Assembly (NCBI GenBank): GCA_964016885.1
Contig: OZ024761.1
Location: forward strand, 11,532,001-11,596,000
Direction: 5' to 3'
Source of the DNA: Eledone cirrhosa
Taxonomy: Eukaryota
DNA length: 64,000 bases
Shown: one piece after another, positions 201 to 32,023 of the stretch
How positions within the stretch are numbered: position 1 is the first letter of the stretch
Layout: the number at the start of each line of letters is the position of its first letter
Position numbers and translations under genes: made by a program
Notes under the pieces: generated by a model
What the model saw: the letters and a program-made list of their open reading frames with translations, nothing else
Databases searched by the model: none
What the model was told of the DNA's origin: nothing

Positions 201-556
201 CCTTTCCAGGTGATAGGGCTGGTGTCACAACCACAACTGAGACACATGTTCAACTCTTTCCTTATTACATGGCTAATGAAAGATACTGCTTATGATTTTA
301 AAATAAGTTTGAAAGTAATTAAGAAATTGGAATAATTTAGTAATATATCTAACCTCATTATTAAAACATTTTTTAGAATAACTTAGCCATTTTAATACCA
401 AACCTTTTGAAACCACTCCTGGTTTTAAGATACCAAACTTTTAAAAAAAAAGTATTTGTATTTATCTAAAAACCTTTGATATTTATATATGAGGGAGGTT
501 GTTGTGTCTATGATGTTACTATATTATATAATATAATATATATATATTATATGTAT

Positions 557-652
557 TTTGCTGATGACACAGAGCACTAAATTAGTACCATTGGAGTTGA
601 TTTTAAAATCCGAACCATAGAACTTGATGGCAAAACTATTAAACTACAAATA
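557..652 (+). pseudogene. RAB1: Rab1 GTPase pseudogene fragment
   Basis: Translates [31 protein letters not shown]. This matches the conserved Rab1 segment [34 protein letters not shown] apart from a 2-codon deletion, an S>H change and an in-frame stop. Confidence 0.85.
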
Positions 653-3769: not shown

Positions 3770-4130
3770 ACATATATATATATGTACGTATGGGTTTACC
3801 GAACATTTATTATAATGTTCGGTTTGTTTGTAAACAAACAGCTCGAATTAAGCCGTACAGTGTTCGGCAACCATCGTCGCCCTTTTCTTCAATACTGACA
3901 AAGGAACGATGAACTAGTTTCAAGCTTATTAGCTATCGTCAGCAATGTATACGATGCTGACGATAGCTGATAAGCTTGAAACTAGTTCATCGTTCCTTTG
4001 TCAGTATTGAACAAAAGGGCGACGATGGTTGCTGAACACTGTACGGCTTAATTCTAGCTGTTTGTTTACAAACAAACCGAACATTATAATAAATGTTCGG
4101 TAAACCCATACGTACATATATATATGTGTG
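3770..4130. repeat. Near-perfect palindromic (fold-back) element, ~170-bp arms, ~10-nt spacer
   Basis: 3781-3944 is the reverse complement of ~3955-4118 with few mismatches; embedded in (TA/CA)n. Confidence 0.9.
3952..3992 (+). ncRNA. Minimal type I hammerhead ribozyme motif (mirror copy on - strand at 3907-3946)
   Basis: Stem I CGATG/CATCG, core CTGACGA, stem II AGCT-GATA-AGCT, GAAA, palindromic stem III ACTAGT, GUU cleavage triplet. Confidence 0.75.
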
Positions 4131-4582: not shown

Positions 4583-5015
4583 CTTCCCACTTCTGTCTTT
4601 TTCTATCTCATTAAAGTTTCATCTGTTTCTCTATCACCCCTTTCTCTATCTGTGTCTCTTTCTTTCCCTCCCCTCTCTGCTGTCGTTAACCCTCTCTTTC
4701 TCACTCATTTGTTTTCTCTCTTTTACTAATCTGTCCCTCTCTCATTCCCATATCTTATCGCTCTTTTTCTCTCTCTTAGTCTTACTCTCTCTCGCTCTTT
4801 CTTTTACCCTCTGTCTTACTCCTTCGCCCCTTTTTCTTTCTCTGTCTTTCTCCTACCCTCTCTCTCCTTCCCTTCTTTTCTCCCTCTGTGTTACTCCTAC
4901 TCACACTCTCTCCGTGTCTTACTCCTCCTCTCTCTCACTCCTCTTCTTCTCCTCTTTTCTCCCTCTGTGTTACTCCTACTCACTCTCTCTCTGTCGGACC
5001 CCTACTCTCTCTCTC
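4477..5015. repeat. CT-rich polypyrimidine / (CT)n low-complexity tract
   Basis: About 540 bp of strongly pyrimidine-skewed sequence including (CT)n runs. Confidence 0.85.
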
Positions 5016-5139
5016 CGGATATTACCGGAAACCTCCGACCCCTTGCCGCCAATAAGAAGCAGACGACAAACATTTAACACAGAAGTCCAACATTTTATCG
5101 CTCAAACTTTTACATAAAAAGTCGACATTGAAGGTAAAA
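4990..5139 (+). promoter_or_regulatory. Candidate promoter and upstream 5' exon of the PRDM9-like gene
   Basis: Local CpG enrichment, ETS-like ACCGGAAA (~5024), CCAAT (5049-5053) and a splice donor AAG|GTAAAA at 5133/5134. The ATG at 7653 directly follows a splice acceptor (TTTCAG), which implies an upstream exon. Confidence 0.45.
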
Positions 5140-5682
5140 TATTTTAATTTTAATTCATTGAAAAATATTCAACAAAATCACATAAATACATATTTTATAT
5201 TTCTCGACATTTTAAATAAGTTTCAGAGTTGTTTTTGCTTAAATATCTTTTTCGTTTCTTGTTTAATTTAAGATTAACTTTATGAAATAAAGAAAAAAAC
5301 TCACGAAATTAAAATTATTAATAAATGATCGATAAATTTATTTTTGATTAACAAAATGTCAATAAGTTATTTAATGACTTCTGTTTGTATGTAAATACTC
5401 GTGTCTGTGCTGGTGTAGTTAATGTCTGTAGTTCTGAGTATATCGTGTTTATGTCAGCATGGGTTGGACATGTCTTCCCGGGCCGAGTTAGTGGGGGCTA
5501 CCTAGGCTCCCACATCTATATATATGATCCCTTACCAAGTGTATTTTAAGGGACGGTGTCGGGTTTATGACACAATTGAAGGCCCCCCCCCCTCCCTCGC
5601 TGACCCTTTTGGGAGGTTTTCTATAGCTGGATGTTCTTCCTATCAACAACCACTTTACAGAGTGTACTGGGTGTATTTGTCA

Positions 5683-7652: not shown

Positions 7653-7800
7653 ATGGATTCTAAACTAGATATTGATCTCAATACTGTTTCTGGTGATATT
7701 GAAACTTTCTTCACTAAAGCAGAAATGGACAATATGTGTGATTATGAGAAAAAACATCTTCAAAATTTACGTAGAAATTATGAAGCAATGATATTATTAG
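7653..7800 (+). CDS. PRDM9: PRDM9 coding exon 1: ancestral KRAB (aKRAB/SSX-type) domain
   Basis: [36 protein letters not shown] aligns with human PRDM9 [36 protein letters not shown] (recalled). Acceptor AG 7651-7652, donor GT 7801. Confidence 0.88.
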
Positions 7801-10800
7801 GTAAATATATTTTTGCTTATGATTCAGTGTTATGAATTCTTCATAATACAACAATGTTGTACAAAATACATGTATATCTCTTCAATGATATCAGCGATTA
7901 CAAAAAGATTGTTAACTGATCTTTGTTTAGTTAGATTTTCCTTCCTAGAGATATTCAGAATGACTTGTAATGTGTGTCTAAGAACCATCAACCTTCTTTC
8001 TGCAGCTGTTTTGTGACTGTCCAGGGAGTCCACCCATCTATAGGTCCTTAATTCTGGATGGAGTCATAGGGGTGTCATCTTGGACATTTAAACTTACTGG
8101 AGCCCATACATGTCTAGGTTGGAATACAGAAGATTTCTTCCAGAGAAATACAGAGAGAGGTGTTAAACATATATTGAAGAAGAATGAATCCCAGTATTAA
8201 ATTGGTTTTATATTATTTGATCTCAAAAAGATGAGAGGCAAAGCTGATCTTGACAGGGTTTGAACACAGAGGAGAGTGAGCTGGAGCAAATATTACAAAG
8301 CATTATATTGGTTGTCTTGTCAGGTAGGGCACCCATAAAACATTGGTTGTCTTGTACAGGTAGGGGATCCATAAATAGCACTGATTCCACAATAGCTCAG
8401 AAGAAATGTCTTTTACGGTCCTCCAATAATTATGACATCTGAAGAATACTGAGGCTACTGAGAATAACCTACAACTTTGTGAGACAAGTTTAACATCTCT
8501 TTCTATGGATGTGATGCTGTTTCTTAAGTATACAAAGGAGTCCTCAGATTTTAGGTTTTGATTCATTGTGCTTATTGAGGCCTCAAATGGCTGTATTAAC
8601 TCGTGGTTGGAACCGTAGGCTTTCATATGTTTCAGCAGCCATTTAACATATCAATCTTTCATACTACTACAGCAAAAGAAGAAAAGATTGTAGCAGGTAA
8701 TATTTAATCTTTAAGACACTGACATAAAGACTACTATTTCCTGTTTTTTCAAAGTTATGTATGAGAGTGGTACCTTCTGATACCAGTGTCTGTGAAAAGA
8801 GCAATATTATCAGAATAATCCACATTATTTGTCAGTTCACCTTAGTATAATGATAAAGTTGTTGTATAATCTAATTTACCAATAATATCAAATATAGAGT
8901 AAAATACTGACATTAGATTTGAACTCTTGATTAAGTAATCATTTAAACTATCCATATAGCTATTCCACCTCTTCTTCCTCCAGTTATTACTGGGATGGTT
9001 ATGGGGTCAGAGTCCTCAAACATGCCTTCTGGTGGGTCCTATCAGAAACAACCATCTCCAACTGATCCGGCTGGATCCTCAAACAAAACTAACCAAGTCC
9101 ATGGATGCTATCCAACCATGTTACTCGAGGTCTACACCTCAGTCTCCTGCCAATTGATTTTACCCATAAAATCTGTCCATCAATTCTTTCTTTAGACATT
9201 CTAACCACACATCTGTAGTATCGGAGCTGTGACCTCTCAATTCAGAGAAGTAGTCACTCTACTTGAAGCAACTCTCTGATATCTGAGCTATACTCTCTCC
9301 TTTTAAAATGTGTCATATCCTGCATTTTACTGCTTTTTTATTTAAACATTGATTATCTATATTTTTCTGTTAGGTTTACGTCCTATGAAACCATGTTTTA
9401 TGGAGTCCAAGAGATATCAACTGAAAAAAAGGTTTGAAGAAACTAAAAATGACGATGATGAGGATATTGAATGGCTTCCTAGTTATAAAAAGAAAAGACA
9501 ACAACCAGGTATTTAGTTTAAAATCTGTTAAACCTTTCATTACCAGTCTGACCAAAACTGGCTCTATGAAATAAAACTACCCATTCTAAATTGTTATGTA
9601 AATTAAAATCTAGCTTTTATGCAAGAAGTGTATGTTATATTACTATCTTATTGATGAAATAATAATTTTAGTAAATCCTTCAAAATCCTTCAATAATTAA
9701 CTAAAAATACAAAATAGAAATATGAGATTCAGTCATTTCACAACTTTGATATTGTATGATGTGAAAATATAGCTAACTTGGTCTGTAATGATGTATCCAA
9801 CCCATGCTAGCTTGGAAAAAAACATGTAAAATGATGATGATGATGATTATATTAGTTTTCTATTCATAATTATTAATTATGTATTTTGCTATTTATAATA
9901 TATTTTTGTACCTTTACTTCACATTAATGTAAAAATAAATATCTTTATCAGTAATATTATAATATTGCAGCTTTTAGAATTCCTGTTGCTCATACAAAAC
10001 CAACCAAACCAAGAGTAATGATAAAATCTGTAAGTTAAATCATCATCATTTTTTCATCATTTCATTTTACGTCCACTTTTCCCTGCTTGTAAGGGTGGGA
10101 CGGGAACTGATTCTGGCTTGATTTCTACAGCTGGATGCCCTTCCTAACACCAACCTCATTTACAGTGAGTGCTGGGTGCTTTTTTGCCGTGGCACCTCCA
10201 CGACCACTTTGCAGTGGAATAATAGGGACCCCAGTCCCTATCATCTCATTTCTACAGCTGAGTAAACTGGAGCAATGTGAAATAAAGTGTCTTGCTCAAG
10301 GAAATAACATCACCCGGTCTGAGAATTGAACTCACAACCTTTCGATTGCACGGCCAATGCTCTAACCACTAAGCCATGTGCCTCCATATAAATGTACTAT
10401 TTTATTAGATATACAATAAATATATATTTTAGTAAATGTACTATGTTATTAGTTGTTATATATATAGTGGAGGTGTTCAGGATTAAAAGGCAGTGTGTCA
10501 GGAAAAATTGTGCTGTTGTTGGGTAGAAGTGTGTCCTAGATCAGGCATGTCAAACTGAGGGTCCCCTGAGGACCACATGGGTCACATATGTGTTGTCTGA
10601 GGGCCACATGGGTGACATATGTGTTGTCTGAGGGCCACATGGGTCACATGTGTTGTCTGAGGGCCACATGGTTCACATATGTGTTGTCTGAGGGCCACAT
10701 GGTTCGCATATGTGTTGTCTGAGGGCCACATGGTTCACATATGTGTTGTCTGAGGGCCACATGGTTCACATATGTGTTGTCTGAGGGCCACATGGTTCAC

Positions 10801-13800
10801 ATATGTGTTGTCTGAGGGCCAAACACGATAACTAATTGCGAACATTACTACTAATTTTTTTTATTTCGTATTACAAAGATAAAACATGCTTGCGCTGTAG
10901 AAGCTTTTGTGCAGGGCACAGGTGTGCTTGTAAAGGGCCGAATGTTTGGCATGCCTGTAAGGGCACAGGTGTGCTTGTAAAGGGCCCCATGTTTGGCATA
11001 CCTGTCAGGGCACAGGTGTGCTTGTAAAGGGCCGAATGTTTGGCATACCTGTAAGGGCACAGGTGTGCTTGTAAAGGGCCCCATGTTTGGCATACCTGTC
11101 AGGGCACAGGTGTGCTTGTAAAGGGCCGAATGTTTGGCATACCTGTAAGGGCACAGGTGTGCTTGTAAAGGGCCACATGTTTGGCATACCTGTCAGGGTG
11201 CAGGTGTGCTTGTAAAGGGCCGAATGTTTGGCATGCCTGTCCTAGATATCAATGGAGCACAAGACCTCACTGAAACTGAAAAAAAAGACAGCATGGAAGT
11301 GTCATTTTGAGAGACTGATGATTGTGGAGAATGCGTGAGAGGAAGATAGCCAGCCCCAATTGGACCCAACAGAGGGACCAGCAGTACAAATCAGCAACAG
11401 GGTAATATATAAGGCAATTAAGGACATAAAGGCAGGCAAAGCATCGGGTCAATTGTGAATAATTGCTGAGATACTCAAAGTATCTGGGATTGTAGATCAC
11501 ACCACAACCACCCATATTGTAAACCATGTCATATAAAATGGTGCTATACCCAATGACTGGTATAGCAGCATCATTGTCAACTGCTACAAGAGTAAAGGTG
11601 ATGCTCTAGATGGCAGAAACTACTGAGGTATGAAACTGATAGTCCAGGTCATAATACTTTCAGAAAGAGGCATAATACAACTGATTAGGGATCAAATTAA
11701 TCTAGAAAAGATGCAGTTCGGATTTGTGTCAAGTAAACGTTCCATGGATGACCTTTTCCTTGTGATGCAACTGCAGGAGAAATACCAAGCTAAAAGCAAA
11801 CCCCTCTACTTGGCACTTTTGACAGGGTCACCCGTTCTGTAATCTGGTTGGCATAAAGGAACCTAGTAGACGAGTGGCTTGTAAGGGCAGTTCAAGCCAT
11901 GTACAGTGGTGCAGTCAGCAAGGTTAAAATTAATAATGACTATAGTGAGAAGTTTAGCATGCTATTCAGGGTCCACCAAGGCTCTGTCCTTAACCCTCGC
12001 CTGTTTATTATCGTCCACCAGGCTATAATCTCTCTCTCTTTCTCTCTCATGTCCTCCTCCTTAATCATAAAAATATTATTTATTACCTTTACCTATCTAA
12101 ATATAATTAATTAATTAATAACTTTAATTGTTATTGTTTATCCAGATAAAAGCCCGAAAACCAAAAGTAATCAATATCATGTTTCCAATGACATTACGGA
12201 AAAGATCTGAAAATTCTACATCTATGGAAGTCCCTTCTGATGATAGTTTTCTTTGTGAGTATAATGGTATCTTTCTTTTTTAATGTTATAGAACTTATAT
12301 TGTATAGAACATGATAAATGAATAACATATATATATATATATATATATCATCATCGTCTTACGTCCACTTTCCCCTGCTTGCAAGGGTGAGACGGGAATT
12401 GATACTGGCTTGATTTCTACAGCTGGATCATCATCATCATCATCATCACCGTTTTACGTCCGTTCTTCCACGCTAGCATGGGTTAGATGGGTTGTCCTGT
12501 TGTGGGCAGTGTCTGGTCGGCTGACCATGCCTTGCTCATACAGGAACTGATCTGGCTTGATTTCTACAGCTGGATGCCCTTCCTAACACCAACCTCATTT
12601 ACAGTGAGTGCTGGGTGCTTTTTCGTGGCGCCTACACGTCCACTTTACAGTGTGGGCTGGGTGCTTTTTTGCCGTGGCACCTCCACGACCACCTTGCGGT
12701 GGGGAGAGTGGGGGCATATTGTTTATATGCTTCAGCATGTACCCATGGGAGGTCGGGTACCCTGTAATACTGCATGACGCCAGAAGTCACGGTCGTGTGT
12801 CATTGTCTTTGAGAGGTGTAGTTGGGTAAGGTCGGCTTTTATCACCTCATCCCAAGTCATCTTGGGTCTCCCCACTCCGCGGTTTCCATCAACTTCTAGT
12901 GCTCTGCACCTTTTTATGCAGCTGTCATCCTTCATACGCATCACATGTCCATACCAGCGTAACCGCCTCTCCTGCACGCAGCATTTGATTCCTCTTATGC
13001 TCAGTCTCTCTCTCAATTCATTTATGCTTTGTCGTTCACGTATATTACTGTTACACATCCATCGGAGCATGCAGGCTTCGTTTCTCTCTAATCTACGTAA
13101 GTCTTCCACCTTCAGCGCCCAGGTCTCACTACCATGCAACATCGCTGTTCGGATACACGCATCATACAGTCTGCCTTTCATTCTGAGGGAGAAGCCTTTT
13201 GCAGCTAGCAGTGGTAGTAGTTCCCTAAACTTCTTCCATCCCGTTCTTACCCTAGTTATTGTACTTTCTGAGCACCCACCTCCGTTGCTAATTCGGTCAC
13301 CTAGGTAGCAGAAGCTGTCTACTGTTTCTACAGAGCCCTCCCAGAGATTGGTGGTACTTGTTTCCTGTGGCTGTTTGCTTGCTGTTTCAGCACAGCTGCT
13401 GCATGTGAATCCTACATTCTTAATTAAGCTTCCTGAGATCCCGCTACATCTCTTGTGTACCCATTGTTTGCATTTGGGGCAGAGAATGGAGTTCCTACCT
13501 ACACCTTTCCTACATACTGAGCAAGGCCATTTCCCTGAGGGGATCTGGGTTCTGTTTTCTCGTCTACTTACAAGGACCTTAGTCTTTGTCATGTTGACTT
13601 TGAGGCCCTTTCTCTCTAGTCCCTGCTTCCAGGTTTGGAATTTCTTCTCTAGTTCTACCATAGATTCAGCTATGAGTGCGAGGTCATCAGCATACAGGAG
13701 TATGGATGCCCTTCCTAACACCAACCTCATTTACAGTGAGTGTTGGGTGCTTTTTGTTCCGTGGCCCCTCCACGACCACTTTGCAGTGGAATGATATGGA

Positions 13801-16800
13801 CCCCAGTCCCTATCATCTCATTTCTACAGCTGAGTAAACTGGAGCAATGTGAAATAAAGTGTCTTGCTCAAGGAAACAACACATCACCCGGTCTGAGAAT
13901 TGAACTCACAACCTTTCGATTGCAAGGCCAATGCTCTAACCATTAAGCCATGTGCCTCCATTATATATATATAAAAGGTAAACAGAAATAACAACACAAT
14001 CGGTACAGTATATGGAAGGTATATATTAGGTTAACGCTTGATATAGCAGGAAGAGGGTCTTAACGTTTCGGACGCTAGTCCTTCATCAGAAGAAAGAATG
14101 AGAAATAAGATAGATTAAGGGGACGGGCTGGATGGAATTGGAAAAAATGGCTTTAGATAAAAATAACAGGTCCATTCGTGTTGACATCTCTTGCAAAACT
14201 GTTGGTGGTGGCGTTTTGTGTATGATTTGTTTTTTAGAAAAGTGGATGATGGCGTGCGTCTACTTGAGATGGAAAAAAAAACGTTTTGTAAAAAGAGCTA
14301 TTATAATTATATATATATATCATCATATATAGATATGTGTGTGTGTGTTGCAAAGTTATTTCTTTCTTGTTTACTTCCATTAGATTGTGAAGACTGCAAT
14401 GAAGAATATACAGGTGACTGTCCTTATCATGGCCAACTTCTTGTGATTTCAGACAATCAGGTAAAATATCTAAAGTTTTAGTTCATTAGTAAATATTTAC
14501 AATTTCATTAAGGTTTATTTAACCCTTTTATTAACTTAAACCCTTTCACATTTACATTACTCTACTATTATATTTTCATGGTAAAGGTTTTATCTCACAT
14601 AATATGGAAATAATTGTTTCTACTTTTGGCACAAGGCCAGCAAATACCAGTGCATTACTGGTACTTTATTTTATCGACCCCGTAATATGGAAATAATGCG
14701 ATGTTGATGTGATGATATTATTTATTTTGAGAACATGAGTGGTTGGTTTGAACAAAAAGAGATGAGAGAATGATTTTCAAATTTTGTAATTAAACACGGT
14801 TTGATGTGTAATTTTATATGCATGTATATAATAACAATCTATTATTAATAAATATATATAGGGCGGTGGATTGGCAGTATCGGTAGAGGGTCGGACACTA
14901 TGCTTTGACGTATAGAGTTACGACCCTTGCCATTCTGAGTTCAAATCCTGCCGAGGTTAACTTTGCCTTTCATCCTTACGGGGTCGATAAAATAAAGTAC
15001 CAGTAATACACTGGGTAATTGCTGGCCTTGTGCAAAAGTTGTTAATAATTATATAGACCATCTTATATCAGATAAGTTTTCAGAACTGTTAGAAAGATCT
15101 CCAGGTGAGAATTGAAATCCTGGCCTTCAAATTATCAAGGAAGACCAGAATTTTCATCCTCATCTCTGGATCTTCCTAACAAGAATATTTATGGCAAAAC
15201 TTTAAAAAATCAATGAAATTTTATGCCAGATTGTGTTTTGGCTTCCAGGCAATCATTGATATATTTTATTTTTGTCTCTTTACATTTAGGTTTCTAAAGG
15301 ATCTTCCAACAGAGCAAAATTAACTGCTCCACCTTGTATTTCTATCTTAGAATCAAAAATACCAGGAGCTGGTCTTGGGGCTTTTGCTATCACTACAATT
15401 CAAGCTAGAGGTAGATTTGGTCCTTATGAAGGAAAACTTATTAATGATCTGGATGAAGCTCAGATATCTGGTTATAGTTGGCAGGTAAAATATTAAAAAC
15501 AATGGAATATAGTTAAGTTTAAAATATATATCTATATATATTTCCCATGGGAACTCCTGTATGCGCATGATCTCACACTTATAGCTGAATCCATGGTGGA
15601 ACTAGAGAAGAAATTCCAAACATGGAAGCAGGGACTAGAAAGAAAGGGTCTCAAAGTCAACATGACAAAGACTAAGGTTCTTGTAAGTAGACGAGAAAAT
15701 ATAACCCAGATCCCCTCAGGGAAATGGCCTTGTTCAGTATGTAGGAAAGGTGTAGGTAGGAACTCCATCCTCTGCCCCAAATGCAAACAATGGGTACACA
15801 AGTGATGTAGTGGGATCTCAGAAAGTTTAACTAAGAATGTAGGCTTCACATGTAGCAGCTGTGCTGGGTCAGCAAGCAGCAAACAGCCACAGGAAACAAA
15901 CACCATCAAACTCTGGGAGGGCTCTGTAGAAACAGTAGACAGCTTCTGTTACCTAGGTGACTGAATTAGCAGCGGAAGTGAGTCTTCAGAAAGTACAATA
16001 ACTAGGGTAAGAACGGGATGGAAGAAGTTCAAGGAGCTACTGCCACTGCTAGCTGCAAAAGGCTTTTCCCTCAAAATGAAAGGCAGACTGTATGATGCGT
16101 GTATCCGAACAGCAATATTACATGGAAATGAAACCTGGCTGCTGTCTATAGAAGACTTGCGTAGATTAGAAAGAAACAAAGCCTGCATGCTCTGATGGAT
16201 GTGTAATAGTAATATACGCGAACGGCAAAGCATAAATGAATTGAGAGAGAGACTGAGCATAAGAGGAATCAAATAGTGTGTGCAGGAGAGGAGGTTACGT
16301 TGGTATAGACATGTGATGCGTATGAAGGATGACAGCTGCATAAAAAGGTGCAGAACACTAGAAGACCTGGGATGAGGTGATAAAGGCCGACCGTACCCAA
16401 TTGCACCTCACAAGGGCAATGACACACGACCGTGACCTTTGGCGTCACGCAGTAATACAGAAGACCCAAGCCCCCCACAGGAACAAGCCGAAGCTGAAGC
16501 ATATGGACAATATACCTCCCAACCCCTAACCCCACCCCAACCCCACTGCAAAGTGGACGTGTAGGTGCCACGGTAAAAAGCACCCAGCACTCACTGTAAA
16601 TGAGGTTGGTGTTAGGAAGGGCATCAAGCTGTAGAAATCAAGATAGAATCAGTTCCCGTATGAGTAAGACAAGGTCAGCCAACTGGACACTGCCCACAAC
16701 AGGACAACCCGTCTAACCCATGCTAGCGTGGAAGAACGGACATAAAACGGTGATGATGATGATGATGAAATATTGGTAATGTATAAATTATAAACTTGCA

Positions 16801-19800
16801 CTCAGTATACTCTGTAAAATGACAGTGTCTACTTTGTAAAGTGTAGTGCTGGTGCTACCATAAAATGCACTGAGTACATGCTTGTACAGTGGTTGGCAGT
16901 AGGATGGGTGTCCAGCTCTTGAAACCATGAAATATATGAACAAGACAGTTATCTAACTTGTCAGGCCTCAGAACAGGAACACCTCTCCAAACCATGGAAA
17001 AAAATAGATGTAAAGTGTTAATGATGATGATTAGATAACTATTATGTCTATACATTAAACATCACTACTTACATTACAATAATAAATGTATGTATCTGTC
17101 TTAGGTATGGAAGCTATTTCATTCGGTGTCAGCCACATTGTAAACTTTGTTAATATTTAGTATGTAGAATATGATGTGTTAACTAGAAATATATGATTAG
17201 GAAGACAGACAGACAGATATATAGTTAATATTATTCTATCGAGGTTAACTTTGCCTTTCATCCTTACGGGGTCGATAAAATAAAGTACCAGTAATACACT
17301 GGGTAATTGCTGGCCTTGTGCCAAAAGTAGAAACAATTCTATGGCAAATATTATTTTCATTTTTCTGGTAAGTTCATGAGACAATTCCAGACATATTTCA
17401 GTTTATTTTGATCTCATCAGTAAAGTAAAGATTTCAGTGTACTTACTGAAGTAAGGATGAAAGATCCACCAAATGAATGTATAATACTGTACATTGGTTG
17501 GAGTAGAAAAATATAATTAATATTCCCTGAAATTATGTTAATAACTATTATATTGGTCTATGAAGGCCTGGGCACTGTCCCTTCCTCCAAATCAAACAAT
17601 ATTTTTGACAATATTTTTATATATATTTTCACACAGATCAATACTAATGGAAAATCAAACTGTTTTATTGATGCAATTGATGTGTCACTGTCTAACTGGA
17701 TGAGATATGTGAACTGTGCAAGGACTGAAGATGAACAAAATTTAACTGCTTTTCAGTACAATGGTAATATCTATTATAGAACACTAAAGATCATTGTAGC
17801 TGGTGAAGAATTACTAGTATGGTATGGTGAAGAATATGCAAAAGATCTTGGTATATCATACAATGAACATCTGACAACAGAGAATGTTTCATCAGTTGAA
17901 GAACAATTACCTGAAACAATCAACACTACAGGTAAAAATACCTTTGATTTAAATCTTTAATACTTTTACTGCTTTCAATCACTAGACTGCAGCCATATTA
18001 GGGCACCACCTTGATTAATCAATCATATCAAATCCAATACTTTTTTTTTTTTCAAGCTATTCCTTATTATAATAATCTTGTATTTTTGTGAAACTACTAA
18101 GTTATGGAACATAATCACAAACAGACACGTCGACAGAAACACATACACATATATGTAGAGAGATAGATATGTCAATCTATTTATTTCTCTGTCTGTCTGT
18201 CTATATATATGTATATGCATACATACGTATAAACAGACACATTATTAAATATACCCAGACCACTATGTTAAGCGGTAGTACCAGTACACCATAAAATACA
18301 CCCAGTACACTCTGTATAGGAGTTATGCTGGTGTCATGATAAAATACACCCGAGTCCCTGCTCTAAAGTGTTTGGCATTTAGAAGGACATCCAACTGTAG
18401 AAACCAGGTTAAACTGGGATATATGAGAGGGATGTTATATATATAAATGTGATTAACTTTCTTAAATGTTAATCACTTTATGTCGCAATTCATCTGTTCA
18501 TGATCATCATTGTCATCTCACGACTGATACAGTTTACAGTTTCTAATAGATGTTTATATTATATACAGATACAACCCCTCATGCGTATGTTTAATACATA
18601 TGTTTATGAATATATTTTTTTATGTTTACAGATAAGTGCCCTTCATCAATTTCACAAATTGATCAGATCAGATCTTCTGGATACACAGATCAATATAGAA
18701 TCAATACAACTTTGGAAATTGATACTGAAATGAAAATACAATCTGTTAAAATAAAAATAAAATGTAAAAAGGATACCTCATTATCAGATTGCAAAAAAAT
18801 GGATTCCAGTTGGAAACCATTCCAATGTAAGGAATGTGGTAAGACATTCTCTGACTCTGGCATGTTCACTAGACATGAGAGAATACATACTGGAGAGAAA
18901 CCATTCCAACGTAAGGAATGTGGTAAGACATTCTCTGTCTCTAGTGCCTTAACAACATATAAGAGGACACATACTGGAGAGAAACTATTCCAATGTAAGG
19001 AATGTGGTAAGACATTCTCTGACTCTGGCATGTTCACTAGACATGAGAGAACACATACTGGAGAGAAATCATTCAAATGTAAGGAATGTGGTAAGACATT
19101 CTCTGACTCTAGTACCTTAACAACACATGAGAGAACACATACTGGAGAGAAACCATACCAATGTAAGCAATGTGGGAAGACATTCTCTGTCTCTAGTCAC
19201 TTAACAACACATGAGAGAACACATACTGGAGAGAAACCATACCAATGTAAGGAATGTGGGAAGACATTCTCTGACTCTAGTAACTTAACAACACATGAGA
19301 GAACACATACTGGAGAGAAACCTTTCAAATGTAATGTATGTGGTAAGACATTCTCTGACTCTAGTACCTTAACAACACATGAGAGAACACATACTGGAGA
19401 GAAGCCTTACAAACGTAAGGTATGTGGTAAGACATTCTCTATCTCTAGTCACTTAACAAAACATAAGAGGACACATACTGGAGAGAAACCTTACAAACGT
19501 AAGATATGTGGTAAGACATTCTCTATCTCTAGTCACTTAACAAGACATAAGAGGACACATACTGGAGAGAAACCATACAAATGTAAGGTATGTGGTAAGA
19601 CATTCTCTGTCTCTGGTGCCTTAACAACACATGAGAGAACACATACTGGAGAGAAACCATACAAATGTAAGGTATGTGGTAAGACATTCTCTGTCTCTGG
19701 TAACTTAACAACACATGAGAGAACACATACTGGAGAGAAACCATACAAATGTAAGGTATGTGGTAAGACATTCTCTGTCTCTGGTGCCTTAACAACACAT

Positions 19801-22104
19801 GAGAGAACACATACTGGAGAGAAACCATTCCAATGTAAGGAATGTGGTAAGACATTCTCTGTCTCTGGTAACTTAACAAAACATAAGAGGACACATACTG
19901 GAGAGAAACCTTACCAATGTAAGGAATGTGGTAAGACATTCTCTGTCTCTAGTCACTTAACAACACATGAGAGGACACATACTGGAGAGAAACCATTCAA
20001 ATGTAAGGAATGTGGTAAGACATTCTCTGACTCTGGTACCTTAACAACACATGAGAGGCCACATACTGGAGAAAAACCTTACCAATGTAAGGAATGTGGT
20101 AAAACATTCTCTGTCTCTAGTCACTTAACAACACATGAGAGGACACATACTGGAGAGAAACCATTCCAATGTAAGGAATGTGGTAAGACATTCTCTGACT
20201 CTGGTACCTTAACAACACATAAGAGGACACATACTGGAGAGCAACCTTACCAATGTAAGGAATGTGGTAAGACATTCTCTGTCTCTAGTGCCTTAACAAC
20301 ACATAAGAGAACACATACTGGAGAGAAACCTTACCAATGTAAGGAATGTGGTAAGACATTCTCTGACTCTAGTAACTTAACAACACATGAGAGGACACAT
20401 ACTGGAGAGAAACCATTCCAATGTAAGGAATGTGGTAAGACATTCTCTGACTCTAGTAACTTAACAACACATGAGAGGACACATACTGGAGAGAAACCTT
20501 TCAAATGTAAGGTATGTGGTAAGACATTCTCTATCTCTAGTCACTTAACAACACATGAGAGAACACATACTGGAGAGAAACCTTTCAAATGTAAGGAATG
20601 TGGTAAGACATTCTCTGACTCTAGTCACTTAACAACACATGAGAGAACACATACTGGAGAGAAACCTTACCAATGTAAGGAATGTGGTAAGACATTCTCT
20701 GACTCTAGTGCCTTAACAACACATGAGAGGACACATACTGTAGAGAAACCTTACCAATGTAAGGAATGTGGTAAGACATTCTCTGTCTCTAGTCACTTAA
20801 CAACACATGAGAGGACACATACTGGAGAGAAACCTTACCAATGTAAGGAATGTGGTAAGACATTCTCTGTCTCTAGTACCTTAACAAAACATGAGAGGAC
20901 ACATACTGGAGAGAAACCATTCCAATGTAAGGAATGTGGTAAGACATTCTCTGACTCTAGTGACTTAACAAAACATAAGAGGACACATACTGGAGAGAAA
21001 CCTTTCCAATGTAAGGAATGTGGTAAGACATTCTCTGTCTCTGGTACCTTAACAACACATGAGAGGACACATACTGGAGAGAAACCATTCCAATGTAAGG
21101 AATGTGGTAAGACATTCTCTGACTCTAGTGACTTAACAAAACATAAGAGGACACATACTGGAGAGAAACCTTTCCAATGTAAGGAATGTGGTAAGACATT
21201 CTCTGTCTCTGGTACCTTAACAACACATGAGAGGACACATACTGGAGAGAAACCTTTCCAATGTAAGGAATGTGGTAAGACATTCTCTGTCTCTAGTACC
21301 TTAACAAAACATGAGAGGACACATACTGGAGAGAAACCTTTCCAATGTAAGGAATGTGGTAAGACATTCTCTGTCTCTAGTACCTTAACAACACATGAGA
21401 GGACACATACTGGAGAGAAACCATTCCAATGTAAGGAATGTGGTAAGACATTCTCTGTCTCTGGTACCTTAACAACACATGAGAGGACACATACTGGAGA
21501 GAAACCATTCCAATGTAAGGAATGTGGTAAGACATTCTCTGTCTCTAGTCACTTAACAAAACATAAGAGGACACATACTGGAGAGAAACCTTACCAATGT
21601 AAGGAATGTGGTAAAACATTCTCTGTCGCTAGTCACTTAACAAAACATAAGAGGACACATACTGGAGAGAAACCTTACCAATGTAAGGAATGTGGTAAGA
21701 CATTCTCTGACTCTGGTACCTTAACAACACATGAGAGGACACATACTGGAGAGAAACCTTACCAATGTAAGGAATGTGGTAAGACATTCTCTGTCTCTAG
21801 TGCCTTAACAACACATAAGAGAACACATACTGGAGAGAAACCTTACCAATGTAAGGAATGTGGTAAGACATTCTCTGTCTCTAGTACCTTAACAAAACAT
21901 GAGAGGACACATACTGGAGAGAAACCATTCCAATGTAAGGAATGTGGTAAGACATTCTCTGTCTCTGGTACCTTAACAAAACATAAGAGGACACATACTG
22001 GAGAGAAACCATTCCAATGTAAGGAATGTGGTAAGACATTCTCTGACTCTAGTACCTTAACAAGACATGAGAGGACACATACTTATAAATGTAAGGAATA
22101 TTAA
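7653..22104 (+). CDS. PRDM9: PRDM9-like histone methyltransferase, full length: KRAB-SSXRD-Zn knuckle-PR/SET-39x C2H2; join(7653..7800,9374..9508,9971..10029,12146..12254,14384..14460,15290..15484,17637..17931,18632..22104), 1496 aa
   Basis: All seven introns are GT-AG with compatible phases (1,1,0,1,0,0,1). The spliced length of 4491 nt is an open frame ending in TAA, and the domains match vertebrate PRDM9 motifs in the correct order. Confidence 0.9.
9374..9508 (+). CDS. PRDM9: PRDM9 coding exon 2: KRAB C-terminal part and acidic EW.P motif
   Basis: [45 protein letters not shown], compared with human GLRATRPAFM...DSDEEWTPRQQ; AG/GT flanks, phase 1/1. Confidence 0.88.
9971..10029 (+). CDS. 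PRDM9: PRDM9 coding exon 3 (basic linker)
   Basis: TTGCAG acceptor and GTAAGT donor; reads [20 protein letters not shown]. Its 59 nt are needed to go from phase 1 to phase 0. Confidence 0.75.
10040..10388 (-). mobile_element. tRNA-derived SINE family B, full length
   Basis: Reverse complement of 5683-6190 without the MITE; (CAT)n tail at the left. Confidence 0.85.
10542..11239. mobile_element. hAT (Charlie-like) MITE with internal 31-bp and 47-bp tandem arrays
   Basis: TIRs CAGGCATGTCAAAC...GTTTGGCATGCCTG and a perfect 8-bp TSD TCCTAGAT (10534-10541, 11240-11247). Contains ~8x 31 bp (10568-10820) and 7x 47 bp (10913-11239). Confidence 0.88.
11520..12030 (+). mobile_element. Degraded RTE LINE RT fragment (N-terminal RT motifs)
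   Basis: [44 protein letters not shown] and [11 protein letters not shown] motifs, with stops and frameshifts. Confidence 0.8.
12146..12254 (+). CDS. PRDM9: PRDM9 coding exon 4: SSXRD motif
   Basis: [36 protein letters not shown] resembles the SSXRD Y.LRERK...EP.DDDYL; TCCAG acceptor, GTGAGT donor. Confidence 0.85.
12348..13961 (-). mobile_element. SINE family B split by a nested RTE LINE (SINE halves 13703-13961 and 12348-12428)
   Basis: The SINE consensus CTACAGCTGGAT^GCCCTTCC is interrupted at this point; TGGAT is duplicated at 12424-12428 and 13703-13707. Confidence 0.8.
12429..13702 (-). mobile_element. 5'-truncated young RTE LINE; uninterrupted ORF from LLYADDL to the C-terminus, with internal PHD-type finger
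   Basis: ORF 12732..13730 contains YADD, a C4HC3 finger, [14 protein letters not shown] and GRPKMTW; (GAT)n tail at 12429-12448. Confidence 0.92.
14058..14093 (-). ncRNA. Minimal type I hammerhead ribozyme (Penelope-type)
   Basis: Minus strand reads TCTT-CTGATGA-A-GGAC-TAGC-GTCC-GAAA-CG-TT-AAGA: canonical core, 4-bp stems I and II, palindromic stem III AACGTT. Confidence 0.8.
14384..14460 (+). CDS. PRDM9: PRDM9 coding exon 5: pre-SET zinc knuckle
   Basis: [26 protein letters not shown] (C-x2-C-x7-C-x2-H); AG/GT flanks. Confidence 0.9.
14862..15040 (+). mobile_element. tRNA-derived SINE family A
   Basis: A/B-box-like head GGCGGTGGATTGGCAGTATCGG...GAGTTCAAATCC; near-identical to 25741-25928. 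Confidence 0.85.
15290..15484 (+). CDS. PRDM9: PRDM9 coding exon 6: PR/SET domain N-terminal half
   Basis: [65 protein letters not shown], containing the IP.AGLG, FGPYEG and GYSW motifs. Confidence 0.92.
15545..16768 (+). mobile_element. 5'-truncated RTE LINE, same family as 12429-13702, opposite orientation
   Basis: Starts at [10 protein letters not shown]; high nucleotide similarity to the reverse complement of 12429-13702; several stops; (GAT)n tail. Confidence 0.92.
17238..17337 (+). mobile_element. SINE family A 3' fragment
   Basis: GAGGTTAACTTTGCCTTTCATCCTTACGGGGTCGATAAAATAAAGTACCAG core. Confidence 0.8.
17637..17931 (+). CDS. PRDM9: PRDM9 coding exon 7: PR/SET domain C-terminal half
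   Basis: FIDA.D...[55 protein letters not shown], close to vertebrate PRDM9 [22 protein letters not shown]...ELLVWYGDEY. Confidence 0.95.
18632..22104 (+). CDS. PRDM9: PRDM9 terminal exon: spacer plus 39 tandem C2H2 zinc fingers (84-bp minisatellite)
   Basis: The first Cys codons run from 18826 to 22018 at exact 84-bp spacing (39 units) with TGEKP linkers. Fingers 2, 8 and 9 have C>R at the first ligand. Confidence 0.95.
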
Positions 22105-22469
22105 TTATTTATTATTTTATATAAAAAAAAAAAATGACATTTAATTTCTGTATATTATGATTACCTCACACATGTAAACATACACATGCACGTACTGACA
22201 GATACAGACATACTGATAAATATGGACACATATATATATATATACACATATAGACAAAGAAACATGCAGACAGATACAGATACGCACACATACACCAAGA
22301 AACACACCTACACACAAGCAGGCAGACATACACACACACATATACACAAAGAAATGCACCTACACATGCAGACAGATAAGCATACGCACACACATACATA
22401 TAAACAAACGTAAATATATACATAGTCATATATAAAAATATGCATACATGCCAACACATAAACACTCAC

Positions 22470-23770
22470 ATACCTACACATGTATATATATACAAAGACA
22501 TTTACATACACATGTATATATAGAATGACATTTACATACACATGTATATATAGAATGACATATACATACACATGTATATATAGAATGACATATACACAAA
22601 CACATGTATATATACAAAGACACACACATACATATATATATATATACAAAGACATACAAACGTGTATATATATACAAAGACATACATATACACGTATATG
22701 TATATACAAAGACATGTACATACACAAACACAAACATATATACAGACATATACATACACATATATATACAGATACATACATACACATGTATATATACAAA
22801 GAAACATACATACACATGTATATATACAAAGATACATACACATGTATATATACAAAGAAACATACATACACATGTATATATTCAAAGATACATACATACA
22901 CATGTATATACACAAAGATACATACATACACATGTATATATACAAAGATACATACACATGTATATACACAAAGATACATACATACACATGTATATATACA
23001 CAAAGATACATACATACACATGTATATATACAAAGAAACATACATACACATGTATATATACAAAGATACATACATACACATGTATATATACAAAGAAACA
23101 TACATACACATGTATATATACAAAGATACATACATACACATGTATATATACAAAGATACATACATACACATGTATATATACAAAGATACATACATACACA
23201 TGTATATATACAAAGAAACATACATACACATGTATATATACAAAGAAACATACATACACATGTATATATACAAAGAAACATGTATATATACAAAGATACA
23301 TACATACACATGTATATATACAAAGAAACATACATACACATGTATATATACAAAGATACATATATACACATGTATATACACAAAGATACATACATACACA
23401 TGTATATATACAAAGATACATACATACACGTGTATATATACAAAGAAACACATGCATGTATATATATATAAAGGCACATACATACACATGTATATATACA
23501 AAGATACATACATACACATGTATATATACAAAGATACATATATACAAATGTATATATACAAAGAAACATACATACACATGTATATATACAAAGATACATA
23601 CATACACATGTATATATACAAAGAAACATACATACACATGTATATATACAAAGATACATACATACACGTATATATACAAAGATACATACATACACATGTA
23701 TATATACAAAGATACATACATACACATGCATGTATATATATATAAAGGCACATACATACACATATATATA
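22470..23770. repeat. 30-bp AT/CA-rich minisatellite (TACATACACATGTATATATACAAAGATACA)n
   Basis: Tandem copies clearest at 22780-23720; explains the spurious long ORFs in all frames. Confidence 0.9.
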
Positions 23771-24189
23771 TATCTATATCAAACAATACTCCATGTTATA
23801 TATATTAAATTAAATGATTTAATTGACTGATAATCGTTAAGACAGAAATATTTAATTACTGCTGTATTAATCTCTGTGATTGTCTTATGGACATATATTG
23901 GTAAATATTAAAGTTATTTAATAGATTCTAAGGATACAGCAGTAATTAAATATTCTCGTTGTCTTAATTAAAACATTTGTCAATCAATTAATTAATTTAA
24001 TTTAATTTAAATAATTTAATTTAATTTAAATCCTGGTTATTTCTATTCATATATATGAGTATGACCAAATATTAGTATGGTTTGTTGATTACTCAATGAA
24101 TACAATTTTACAATAGATTAGAAGCACTCAACAGCTGGTTTTCCTGGAGTTTTTAATATTATTCAAAATATTAACAAATGAAAAATATT

Positions 24190-27479: not shown

Positions 27480-28090
27480 CATAGTTATATAACTTGTATA
27501 TATAATACCAAGTATATATTGTGGTTATATAACAAATATATATATATATATGGGGTATATATTGTGGTTATATAACAAATATGTATATATATATGGGGTA
27601 TATATTGTGGTTATATAACAAATATGTATATATGGGGTATATATTGTGGTGATATAACAAATATGTATATATATATGGGGTATATATTGTGGTTATATAA
27701 CAAATATGTATATATAATATCAAGTATATATTGTGGTTATATAACAAATATATATATATGGGGTATATATTGTGGTTATATAACAAATATGTATATATAA
27801 TATCAAGTATATATTGTGGTTATATAACAAATATATATATATATGGGGTATATATTGTGGTTATATAACAAATATGTATATATATATATTGGGTATATAT
27901 TGTGGTTATATAACAAATATGTATATATATATATATTGGGTATATATTGTGGTTATATAACAAATATGTATATATATTGGGTATATATTGTGGTTATATA
28001 ACAAATATGTATATATATGGGGTATATATTTTGGTTATATCACATGTATGTGTAATATCGAATATATATAGCGTAGTTATATAACAAATG
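27480..28090. repeat. ~40-bp AT-rich minisatellite (GGGTATATATTGTGGTTATATAACAAATATGTATATAT..)
   Basis: About 14 tandem copies with variable (TA)n length. Confidence 0.85.
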
Positions 28091-29192
28091 TATATATAAT
28101 ACAGACCTGCCAACCTCTAAAACCCAAACAGGAAGTACCATGAAAAAAGGGCCCCAAAATGGGGAGATTTTACATAATAAATGCTGTAGCCATTTTCACA
28201 AGAGAAGATATCTTTCATCCACCCCAAAGGCTATTGAAAATCTCCCCATTGGACGGGGAAAGTGTATAGGTCTATATAATATCAAGTGTATATTGTGGTG
28301 ATATCACTAACATATGTTTGATATTTGATATCAATCAGACATTTAATATTTTCCCATAATCAAAATTGCCAAAAAATTTGAAATGCCAAATATTTGAAAT
28401 AAAAATGAGAATAACATGCAAAAAAGAAAATAATTTTAATTAATTAATAAAATGGGTTAAAATTAAATAAATTTTCTTTATAAACAAGATGGAGTTGACT
28501 TTCCTGTTGTTTCTTAATCTTTAGCATGCTAGAAATGTTTATGAATTGCTTCCATTAACACTATATAATACATCAAGGGAAGAATGCCTGCACTCAGTGG
28601 TTTTTAAGTGCTGGCATGACTGCCAGTCAGTAGGTTTTACATCAGTGGCCTCTTAGCCTCTGGCTCAAAAGCCTATCCTGGAGGCATTGGGGGTTTGGAG
28701 TCACAGTGTTCCTTCTCCTAGGCTGGTTGCCAACCAAGGCTGATATGAGCCCAGCCTGTCCATCACTCAGTTATACTGCTGAGTACCCAGTCGCGCCTGC
28801 AGCAAGCTCTGTAGAAACAGGAGGTACCATGGTAAGATGCTACTCGAGACACAGTTGAGAACAAGAGGCCACATGCATGTAGACACATCAGCTCTCACTT
28901 CCACTGGGCAGGAGAGGGTCTGCAATCACATCACTATTCTTAACCCCCTCATATATATGTATGTATATACAATATAGATAACAATCAAATTTTGTTTAGG
29001 CATTTAATTGCTAATGATCGTTTCTTCCAGATATTGGTCTGGAATCATTGGAGCATATAAAATGTTAAAACAAATAAATTCCTAATCATTAGAACAGTCA
29101 GCAGGATATCGGTATTATATATCAGGTAATATACAATATTACCTTTATCTTATTTATAATTCTATATATAAGTATAACTATTATATATATAT

Positions 29193-31823: not shown

Positions 31824-32023
31824 NNNNNNNNNNNNNNNNNNNNNNNNNNNNNNNNNNNNNNNNNNNNNNNNNNNNNNNNNNNNNNNNNNNNNNNNNNNNN
31901 NNNNNNNNNNNNNNNNNNNNNNNNNNNNNNNNNNNNNNNNNNNNNNNNNNNNNNNNNNNNNNNNNNNNNNNNNNNNNNNNNNNNNNNNNNNNNNNNNNNN
32001 NNNNNNNNNNNNNNNNNNNNNNN
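31824..32023. other. Assembly gap (200 N)
   Basis: Run of exactly 200 N, most likely a fixed-size scaffolding spacer. Confidence 0.98.

What the first reader, a model, noticed from the sequence alone, without database searches (positions are those of the whole stretch)
7653..22104. Complete, apparently intact PRDM9 (KRAB+SSXRD+PR/SET+ZF array) in an invertebrate, probably octopus-like, genome
Seen: eight phase-compatible GT-AG exons give a 1496-aa ORF with an aKRAB, an SSXRD-like motif, a zinc knuckle, PR/SET and a ZF array. The tyrosines equivalent to human Y276 (FGPYEG), Y341 (IYYRT) and Y357 (LLVWYG) are retained. Established: in mammals, this full four-domain form of PRDM9 positions meiotic recombination hotspots through H3K4me3/H3K36me3; copies lacking KRAB/SSXRD or the catalytic tyrosines are not associated with that role. 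Inference: the repeats suggest a coleoid cephalopod host, so this could be a PRDM9-directed hotspot system in a mollusc. Full-length invertebrate homologues exist, but as far as I know their function is essentially untested. The small N-terminal exons are easily missed by annotation, leaving a generic 'zinc finger protein'.
Basis: partly seen in the sequence, partly recalled or inferred. Interest (0 to 1): 0.9.

Follow-up and report, generated by a model that had tools for sequence, protein, structure and literature searches.

The report
Intact octopus PRDM9, 39-finger array
A likely octopus genome carries an unbroken, predicted eight-exon copy of PRDM9, the gene that places recombination hotspots in mammals, with an unusually long 39-unit DNA-reading array; it likely does the same job here, but that is untested and such genes are already known from other molluscs.

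Summary
Confirmed. Eight GT-AG exons give a stop-free 1496-aa frame. It has an ancestral KRAB (63 bits, custom HMM), a weak SSXRD (12 bits), a zinc knuckle and a PR/SET with tyrosines matching human Y276/Y341/Y357. The SET sits among bilaterian PRDM9s, sister to an O. bimaculoides protein annotated 'zinc finger protein 391'. The array has 39 units (36 canonical), 92% alike, with half its diversity at DNA-contact sites: rank 1 of 47 Pfam-picked and 7 of 49 similarity-picked arrays of this genome. It is the only full SET copy found; three broken relics lie on another contig. A ZCWPW1-like gene is present; ZCWPW2 was not found. New here: the post-SET finger is missing. Splicing, germline expression and hotspot function are untested. 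Full-length PRDM9 is already reported from limpet, scallop, termites and cnidarians; I found no cephalopod paper. The scan earlier noted a PRDM9-like gene in another octopus genome. Verdict: new member of a known kind; hotspot role about 60% likely.

The parts
4990..5133 (+). Possible non-coding first exon / promoter (inferred; left edge approximate)
   Evidence: CpG observed/expected 1.04-1.27 at 4751-5500 against 0.42 for 1-31800; GT donor at 5134; stretch 5000-5380 is co-duplicated in the C4 relic; exon 1 begins AG|ATG, which implies an upstream exon
7653..7800 (+). Exon 1: start codon and ancestral KRAB-A
   Evidence: custom KRAB HMM aa 15-65, 63.2 bits; local score 142 to scallop P0003, best of 1000 shuffles 42
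9374..9508 (+). Exon 2: end of KRAB and the acidic stretch with conserved Trp
9971..10029 (+). Exon 3: short linker exon, needed to keep the frame
   Evidence: phase 1 to 0; aligns loosely to scallop, fish and other homologues
12146..12254 (+). Exon 4: divergent SSXRD (about 12194-12254)
   Evidence: 12.3 bits, 0 of 1000 shuffles; aligns to tegu P0015 residues that pass Pfam SSXRD
14384..14460 (+). Exon 5: pre-SET zinc knuckle
   Evidence: PF18445 E 5.4e-4, below the curated cut-off; alignment
15290..15484 (+). Exon 6: PR/SET first half, Y222 (human Y276) at 15425-15427
17637..17931 (+). Exon 7: PR/SET second half, Y288 (Y341) at 17775-17777 and Y304 (Y357) at 17823-17825
18632..18813 (+). Exon 8 linker; the post-SET zinc finger of most PRDM9s is missing
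18814..22089 (+). C2H2 zinc-finger minisatellite, 39 units of 84 bp, 36 canonical
22090..22104 (+). C-terminal tail and TAA stop

Best explanation
This is an unbroken PRDM9 gene of a likely octopod, with a predicted eight-exon product that carries KRAB, a divergent SSXRD, PR/SET with all three catalytic tyrosines and a 39-unit finger array, and it likely positions meiotic recombination as PRDM9 does in mammals and salmonids. Shown: the frame, domains, orthology, array homogenisation, contact-site diversity, and a ZCWPW1-like CW-PWWP gene in the genome. Inferred from the vertebrate system: in meiocytes subsets of fingers bind DNA motifs; PR/SET trimethylates H3K4 and H3K36 nearby; KRAB/SSXRD and a CW-PWWP reader link the marks to break formation and repair; erosion of bound motifs then favours new finger combinations, which unequal exchange in the 84-bp minisatellite supplies. 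With 39 units the protein would read several motifs rather than one 100-base site.
For: Four domains and three tyrosines. SET 75% identical to O. bimaculoides over 138 aa against 37% for the linker, as expected of purifying selection. Nested among bilaterian PRDM9s at 89/89 and 92/90; keeping it out is rejected at p-AU 0.039. Contact-site share of diversity 0.49-0.52, the range of salmonid PRDM9 (0.49, 0.55; PMC11703093), where hotspot control is shown for trout; only 3 of 20475 four-position sets reach it. pN 0.288 at contact codons, 0.037 elsewhere, pS 0.077 overall (pairs not independent). Rank 1 of 47 against Pfam-picked arrays. Only one full SET copy found, with dead relics elsewhere, the birth-and-death pattern described in cnidarians. 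ZCWPW1-like gene whose eight aligned segments are stop-free. Limpet PRDM9 has a male-gonad EST (PMC2779102).
Against: No transcript, ChIP or recombination data were seen. 6 of 48 similarity-picked arrays of this genome have a higher contact-site share, up to 0.66, so the signature is not unique to PRDM9 here. SSXRD is weak and lacks a conserved tyrosine. The post-SET finger is missing. No second CW-PWWP gene (ZCWPW2) was found, whereas 26 of 28 cnidarians have both. In termites, full-length PRDM9 and hotspots coexist but predicted motifs showed no raised recombination (PMC12047536). Tree support for the whole PRDM7/9 clade is moderate (90/87 and 80/80) and no named PRDM11 row was included.
Confidence: 0.6

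Rival explanations
1. A PRDM9 orthologue that no longer positions recombination and acts as a sequence-specific chromatin regulator, its array evolving like other octopod zinc-finger genes (for example against repeats).
For: Other arrays of this genome show equal or higher contact-site diversity (6 of 94); SSXRD eroded; post-SET finger lost in this gene and in O. bimaculoides; ZCWPW2 not found; surfclam prdm9 peaks in the blastula (PMC10451705).
Against: KRAB, tyrosines and frame are kept; the array has its own backbone, unlike the common octopod finger, and is more homogeneous than all 46 Pfam-picked arrays; a ZCWPW1-like dual-mark reader is retained.
Confidence: 0.22
2. PRDM9 marks meiotic chromatin but shares control with promoter-like open chromatin, or its many low-selectivity fingers spread breaks so widely that sharp hotspots do not form.
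For: Thr at +6 in 24 of 36 canonical fingers, Val or Asp at -1 in 35 of 36, no Arg or Gln at -1; termite motifs not enriched in hotspots; a mixed regime is reported for snakes (title and abstract start only).
Against: The specificity code is recalled, not tested; functional vertebrate arrays also use Thr at +6 often (P0065, P0079).
Confidence: 0.13
3. The gene is not expressed as one four-domain product (silent, recently dead, or spliced without the small 5' exons), or the array length is an assembly error.
For: No RNA was seen; three of 39 units are degenerate; minisatellites misassemble; the O. bimaculoides model starts at the SET exon.
Against: Open frame over 4491 nt with 7 of 7 canonical phase-matched introns; DNA contigs of one sample match exons 1-3, 6, 7 and most of 5 with 0-1 differences; 33 of 38 full units differ in DNA and only one two-unit block repeats, unlike a collapsed or inflated repeat; the relics show how fast dead copies decay.
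Confidence: 0.05

Closest known systems
Vertebrate hotspot-directing PRDM9 (human, mouse; salmonid PRDM9 alpha1, PMC11703093)
   Same: KRAB-SSXRD-knuckle-PR/SET-array order, three tyrosines, single-exon 84-bp minisatellite, contact-site diversity 0.49-0.52
   Different: 39 units against 5-15 in salmonids; no post-SET finger; weak SSXRD; ZCWPW2 not found; function untested
Molluscan PRDM9: Lottia gigantea XP_009045324 (PMC2779102, PMC8835667 Table S1), scallop PRDM9-like P0003/P0006, Gigantopelta XP_041356285
   Same: Closest N-terminal matches; same domain order; homogenised arrays (contact share 0.54-0.63 in P0003, P0004, P0092); also missed by Pfam KRAB
   Different: Longer array (39 against 23 in Lottia, 5-14 in those models); P0004, P0006, P0008 and P0092 keep the post-SET finger and the SSXRD tyrosine is kept in scallop and Gigantopelta
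Octopus bimaculoides XP_014789468.1 'zinc finger protein 391, partial'
   Same: Sister in the SET tree (100/98), 75% SET identity, also lacks the post-SET finger
   Different: The record is partial (starts at the SET exon, no KRAB or SSXRD); its first fingers are more degenerate and its contact residues differ
Cnidarian and termite full-length PRDM9 (bioRxiv 10.64898/2026.09.07.749791; PMC12047536)
   Same: Invertebrate four-domain PRDM9 with the same sequence hallmarks and no direct functional proof; truncated paralogues
   Different: Cnidarian full-length copies have 3-17 fingers, often several copies, and mostly both ZCWPW genes; here one copy, 39 units, one ZCWPW

Membership tests
PRDM7/9 orthologue | PR/SET groups with PRDM7/9, not other PRDMs | tested here: met
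   PDB: PRDM9 88 bits, next PRDM1 63, PRDM11 56; trees of 58 and 35 rows; AU p 0.039. Named outgroups were PRDM1, 4, 10, 12, 14 only
Full-length PRDM9 | Ancestral KRAB | tested here: met
   Custom HMM 63.2 and 43.8 bits, shuffles at most 6.0; Pfam alone missed it
Full-length PRDM9 | SSXRD | tested here: met
   Weakly: 12.3 bits, 0 of 1000 shuffles; 9.5 bits, 1 of 1000 with vertebrate seeds; right position; conserved Tyr missing
Full-length PRDM9 | Catalytic Y276, Y341, Y357 | tested here: met
Full-length PRDM9 | Single post-SET zinc finger (PMC6116924 figure legend) | tested here: not met
   Absent in the protein and in all 7 introns; found by pattern in 19 of 26 other homologues with enough tail. 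Not one of the four domains used to define full length
Hotspot-directing PRDM9 | Homogenised single-exon array with diversity at -1, 2, 3, 6 | tested here: met
   92% mean DNA identity, share 0.49-0.52
Hotspot-directing PRDM9 | Array in the top 5% of the species' C2H2 genes (PMC5519329) | tested here: inconclusive
   Rank 1 of 47 and 7 of 49 in two differently biased samples; the genome has thousands of finger matches and was not sampled at random
Hotspot-directing PRDM9 | Allelic diversity of the array in populations | not testable with these tools
   One assembly; the three runs found are one sample
Hotspot-directing PRDM9 | Partner readers ZCWPW1 and ZCWPW2 | tested here: inconclusive
   ZCWPW1-like gene found at G000:C22:20.709-20.730 Mb; no second CW-PWWP gene, but exon-wise searches can miss it
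Hotspot-directing PRDM9 | Spliced transcript in meiocytes | not testable with these tools
   No RNA holder listed
Hotspot-directing PRDM9 | H3K4me3+H3K36me3 activity; hotspots follow the array allele | not testable with these tools
   Needs assay, ChIP or LD maps
Octopod generic C2H2-ZNF expansion | No PR/SET or KRAB; common finger backbone | tested here: not met
   Gene has PR/SET and KRAB; its finger backbone differs from the one shared by 47 of 48 similarity-picked arrays

The most novel reading that the evidence does not exclude
Octopods run PRDM9-directed recombination with a rebuilt protein: no post-SET finger, one CW-PWWP reader, and a 39-unit array that works as several alleles in one molecule, spreading breaks over many motifs and blunting hotspot erosion. 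Showing it would be the first direct proof of PRDM9 hotspots in a protostome that my searches could find.
Probability: 0.2. Interest if true: 0.75.

Novelty: new member of a known kind. Interest (0 to 1): 0.42.

Why it matters
Whether PRDM9 positions recombination outside vertebrates is still open: the termite and cnidarian papers read here give sequence hallmarks, not proof. A single-copy, intact cephalopod gene with an exact exon map is a clean test case and shows that octopod PRDM9 hides under generic zinc-finger names. The very long array and the lost post-SET finger bear on how array length affects hotspot number. But the gene class is already known in molluscs, and this genome shows that the contact-site statistic used as a proxy for hotspot function is matched by some other octopod finger arrays.

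Tried and rejected
Pfam on single exons: no KRAB or SSXRD; of 6 homologues scanned only tegu P0015 passed both. Exon 1 against the protein database (13 candidates, none scored), PDB and ESM Atlas: blank. AlphaFold of half the SET domain without an alignment: pLDDT 45, not used. A skipped exon for the post-SET finger: no C2H2-like motif in 7 of 7 introns. The two C1132 and the C1 SET hits as PRDM9 paralogues: L002 and L003 group with PRDM14; L004 was not in the tree. The C4 KRAB-plus-finger copy as a live SET-less gene: rejected, stops and frameshifts. The octopod ZNF expansion as a PRDM9 offshoot: not supported, different backbone and only 2 other KRAB-exon matches. No binding motif was predicted and no link to the neighbouring satellite was tested. 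Paper searches without a cephalopod PRDM9 report; array-length searches gave nothing useful, so 'longest known' is not claimed. Supplements of the cnidarian preprint (97 metazoan PRDM9 sequences) were not seen and may list a cephalopod.
Full report
OBSERVATION. I rebuilt the gene from the window. Eight exons (7653-7800, 9374-9508, 9971-10029, 12146-12254, 14384-14460, 15290-15484, 17637-17931, 18632-22104) give 1496 aa with no internal stop, and 7 of 7 introns are GT-AG. Contigs of three runs from one sample match exons 1-3, 6, 7 and most of exon 5 with 0-1 differences and run through the introns. No RNA holder was listed, so splicing is predicted.

DOMAINS. Pfam finds the zinc knuckle weakly, PR/SET and the fingers, but no KRAB or SSXRD on single exons. 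Pfam is also blank for limpet and scallop PRDM9 in Table S1 of PMC8835667 (supplement search). The N-terminus aligns with scallop, fish and tegu PRDM9, and the tegu segments pass Pfam KRAB and SSXRD. HMMs built without the window score its KRAB at 63.2 bits (18 seeds; shuffles at most 5.8) and its SSXRD at 12.3 bits (24 seeds; 0 of 1000 shuffles as high); vertebrate-only seeds give 43.8 and 9.5 bits (1 of 1000). The SSXRD is real but eroded: one residue short, without a tyrosine seen by eye in 22 of 24 seeds. Both SET exons hit PRDM9 structures first (88 bits against 63 for PRDM1 and 56 for PRDM11). Y222, Y288 and Y304 align to human Y276, Y341 and Y357. The single post-SET finger described for mouse PRDM9 (PMC6116924, passages) is absent here and in O. 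bimaculoides. A pattern search finds it in 19 of 26 other homologues with 60 or more residues of tail (36 proteins given, 3 without the anchor motif, 5 too short; some misses are spacing variants). No intron hides it.

ORTHOLOGY AND HOST. The best database hit is O. bimaculoides XP_014789468.1, 'zinc finger protein 391, partial': 75% identical over the SET, 37% over the linker. In a 58-row SET tree the window is its sister (100/98), inside a group of 26 bilaterian rows (89/89) and a PRDM7/9 clade of 31 rows with sponge and coral members (90/87). A 35-row tree without 23 long, gappy or redundant rows agrees (92/90 and 80/80), and holding the other 21 PRDM9 rows together without the two octopod rows is rejected at p-AU 0.039. 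Named outgroups covered only PRDM1, 4, 10, 12 and 14. An octopod host is inferred from these hits and from Argonauta as best match of the ZCWPW1-like gene.

ARRAY. There are 39 units of 84 bp, 36 canonical. The first 38 share 92% mean DNA identity; 33 are unique in DNA and only one two-unit block repeats, which argues against an inflated assembly. Positions -1, 2, 3 and 6 carry 0.49-0.52 of amino-acid diversity; 3 of 20475 four-position sets reach this. Pairwise pN is 0.288 at contact codons and 0.037 elsewhere, with pS 0.077; gene conversion makes these pairs non-independent (PMC5519329, section 25). Salmonid PRDM9 has 0.49 and 0.55 with 5-15 fingers (PMC11703093, passages). As a control I measured other arrays of this genome. 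Of 50 loci picked by Pfam score (from 150 listed matches), 46 gave an array: none was higher in share, identity or length (medians 0.32 and 0.73). Of 51 loci picked by likeness to the window, 48 gave an array: 6 had a higher share (up to 0.66), 2 higher identity, none was as long. Loci were 3-10 kb, so some arrays may be cut short. The signature is strong but not unique here. This control was prompted by an earlier scan note (e1-9557371).

GENOME CONTEXT. Exon 6 matches only itself; exon 7 has 10 other matches at 38-52% identity, and the 9 placed in the tree fall outside the PRDM9 clade. Three decayed relics lie on C4: exon 1 alone at 207.9 Mb; exons 1, 2 and a broken finger exon without exons 3-7 at 308.5 Mb; and a rearranged copy at 307.5 Mb with inverted exon 5, a cut exon 7 and 11 near-identical fingers. 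Four zf-CW matches exist: two MORC-like and one KDM1B-like (names by recall of the sequences), and one followed by a PWWP exon. The last hits ZCWPW1 best (E 4.6e-7; ZCWPW2 0.002), and its eight segments aligned to the Argonauta protein, in order on the minus strand, have no stops. No second CW-PWWP gene was found; TEX15, FBXO47 and HELLS were not searched.

MECHANISM. Best reading (0.6): a meiotic hotspot specifier as in vertebrates. Fingers bind, PR/SET writes H3K4me3 and H3K36me3, and KRAB/SSXRD and the CW-PWWP reader connect to break formation and repair; motif erosion drives finger turnover. Every step after the anatomy is inferred. Rivals: a regulator without a hotspot role (0.22), a diffuse or shared regime (0.13), a silent or misassembled gene (0.05).

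WHAT IS KNOWN. PMC2779102 (passages) reports concerted evolution of 23 Lottia PRDM9 fingers with a male-gonad EST. PMC4760075 (passages and supplement search) treats Prdm7/9 as an old metazoan subfamily; its searched supplements name no Octopus. PMC12047536 (passages) finds full-length PRDM9 and hotspots in termites but no motif link. bioRxiv 10.64898/2026.09.07.749791 (parts 1-5 of 7; supplements not seen) finds full-length copies in 28 cnidarians with 3-17 fingers and calls the invertebrate role largely unknown. PMC10451705 (passages) lists a surfclam PRDM9. PMC13186367 (find) added nothing. Searches pairing PRDM9 with octopus or cephalopod listed 1 and 2 papers, none on a cephalopod gene by title; most subscription papers are not held. 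The scan earlier noted a PRDM9-like gene in another octopus genome (e1-9530455, unchecked) and SET-less KRAB-finger genes in sea urchins.

VERDICT. It is a new member of a known kind, with two oddities (array length, lost post-SET finger) and an untested function.

Noticed in passing
window 32024-64000; continues in L060 (G000:C22:11596001-11606000): 40-bp satellite, about 800 copies at 94% match, starting after a 200-N gap (31824-32023); absent 50 kb further on. About 10 kb from the PRDM9 stop; no link tested.
   Followed up: partly
L019-L020 (G000:C4:308.500-308.508 Mb): Broken PRDM9 relic with exons 1, 2 and finger exon but no match to exons 3-7: a KRAB-plus-finger layout without SET, now with stops and frameshifts.
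   Followed up: yes
L095-L096 (G000:C4:307.522-307.531 Mb): Second rearranged relic with 11 fingers identical at all contact sites (98% DNA identity), inverted exon 5 and a cut exon 7.
   Followed up: yes
L024 (G000:C4:207.925 Mb): Isolated, frameshifted copy of exon 1.
   Followed up: yes
L049-L055 (G000:C22:20.709-20.730 Mb, minus strand): ZCWPW1-like gene on the same contig, 9 Mb from PRDM9; molluscan orthologues carry misleading names in databases.
   Followed up: yes
L094 (G000:C26:20.467-20.476 Mb): 1218-aa open frame of fingers with alternating contact residues, share 0.66 and 93% identity, above PRDM9; upstream domains not examined.
   Followed up: partly
window 556-651: Short frameshifted fragment resembling a Rab1-type small GTPase (name recalled, not searched).
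   Followed up: no
window about 3790-4110: Near-perfect inverted repeat with arms of roughly 155 bp, MITE-like, seen by eye.
   Followed up: no
window 12732-13730 (-) and about 15530-16460 (+): Two related retrotransposon-like fragments in introns 4 and 6, in opposite orientation; very high copy number in the laid runs for the second. Family not determined.
   Followed up: no
window 10566-10821, 10912-11241, 22467-23772, 27512-28098: Minisatellites of 31, 47, 30 and 43 bp.
   Followed up: no
G000:C1132:436410-447092: Two PR/SET exons in opposite orientation about 10 kb apart; L002 groups with PRDM14.
   Followed up: partly
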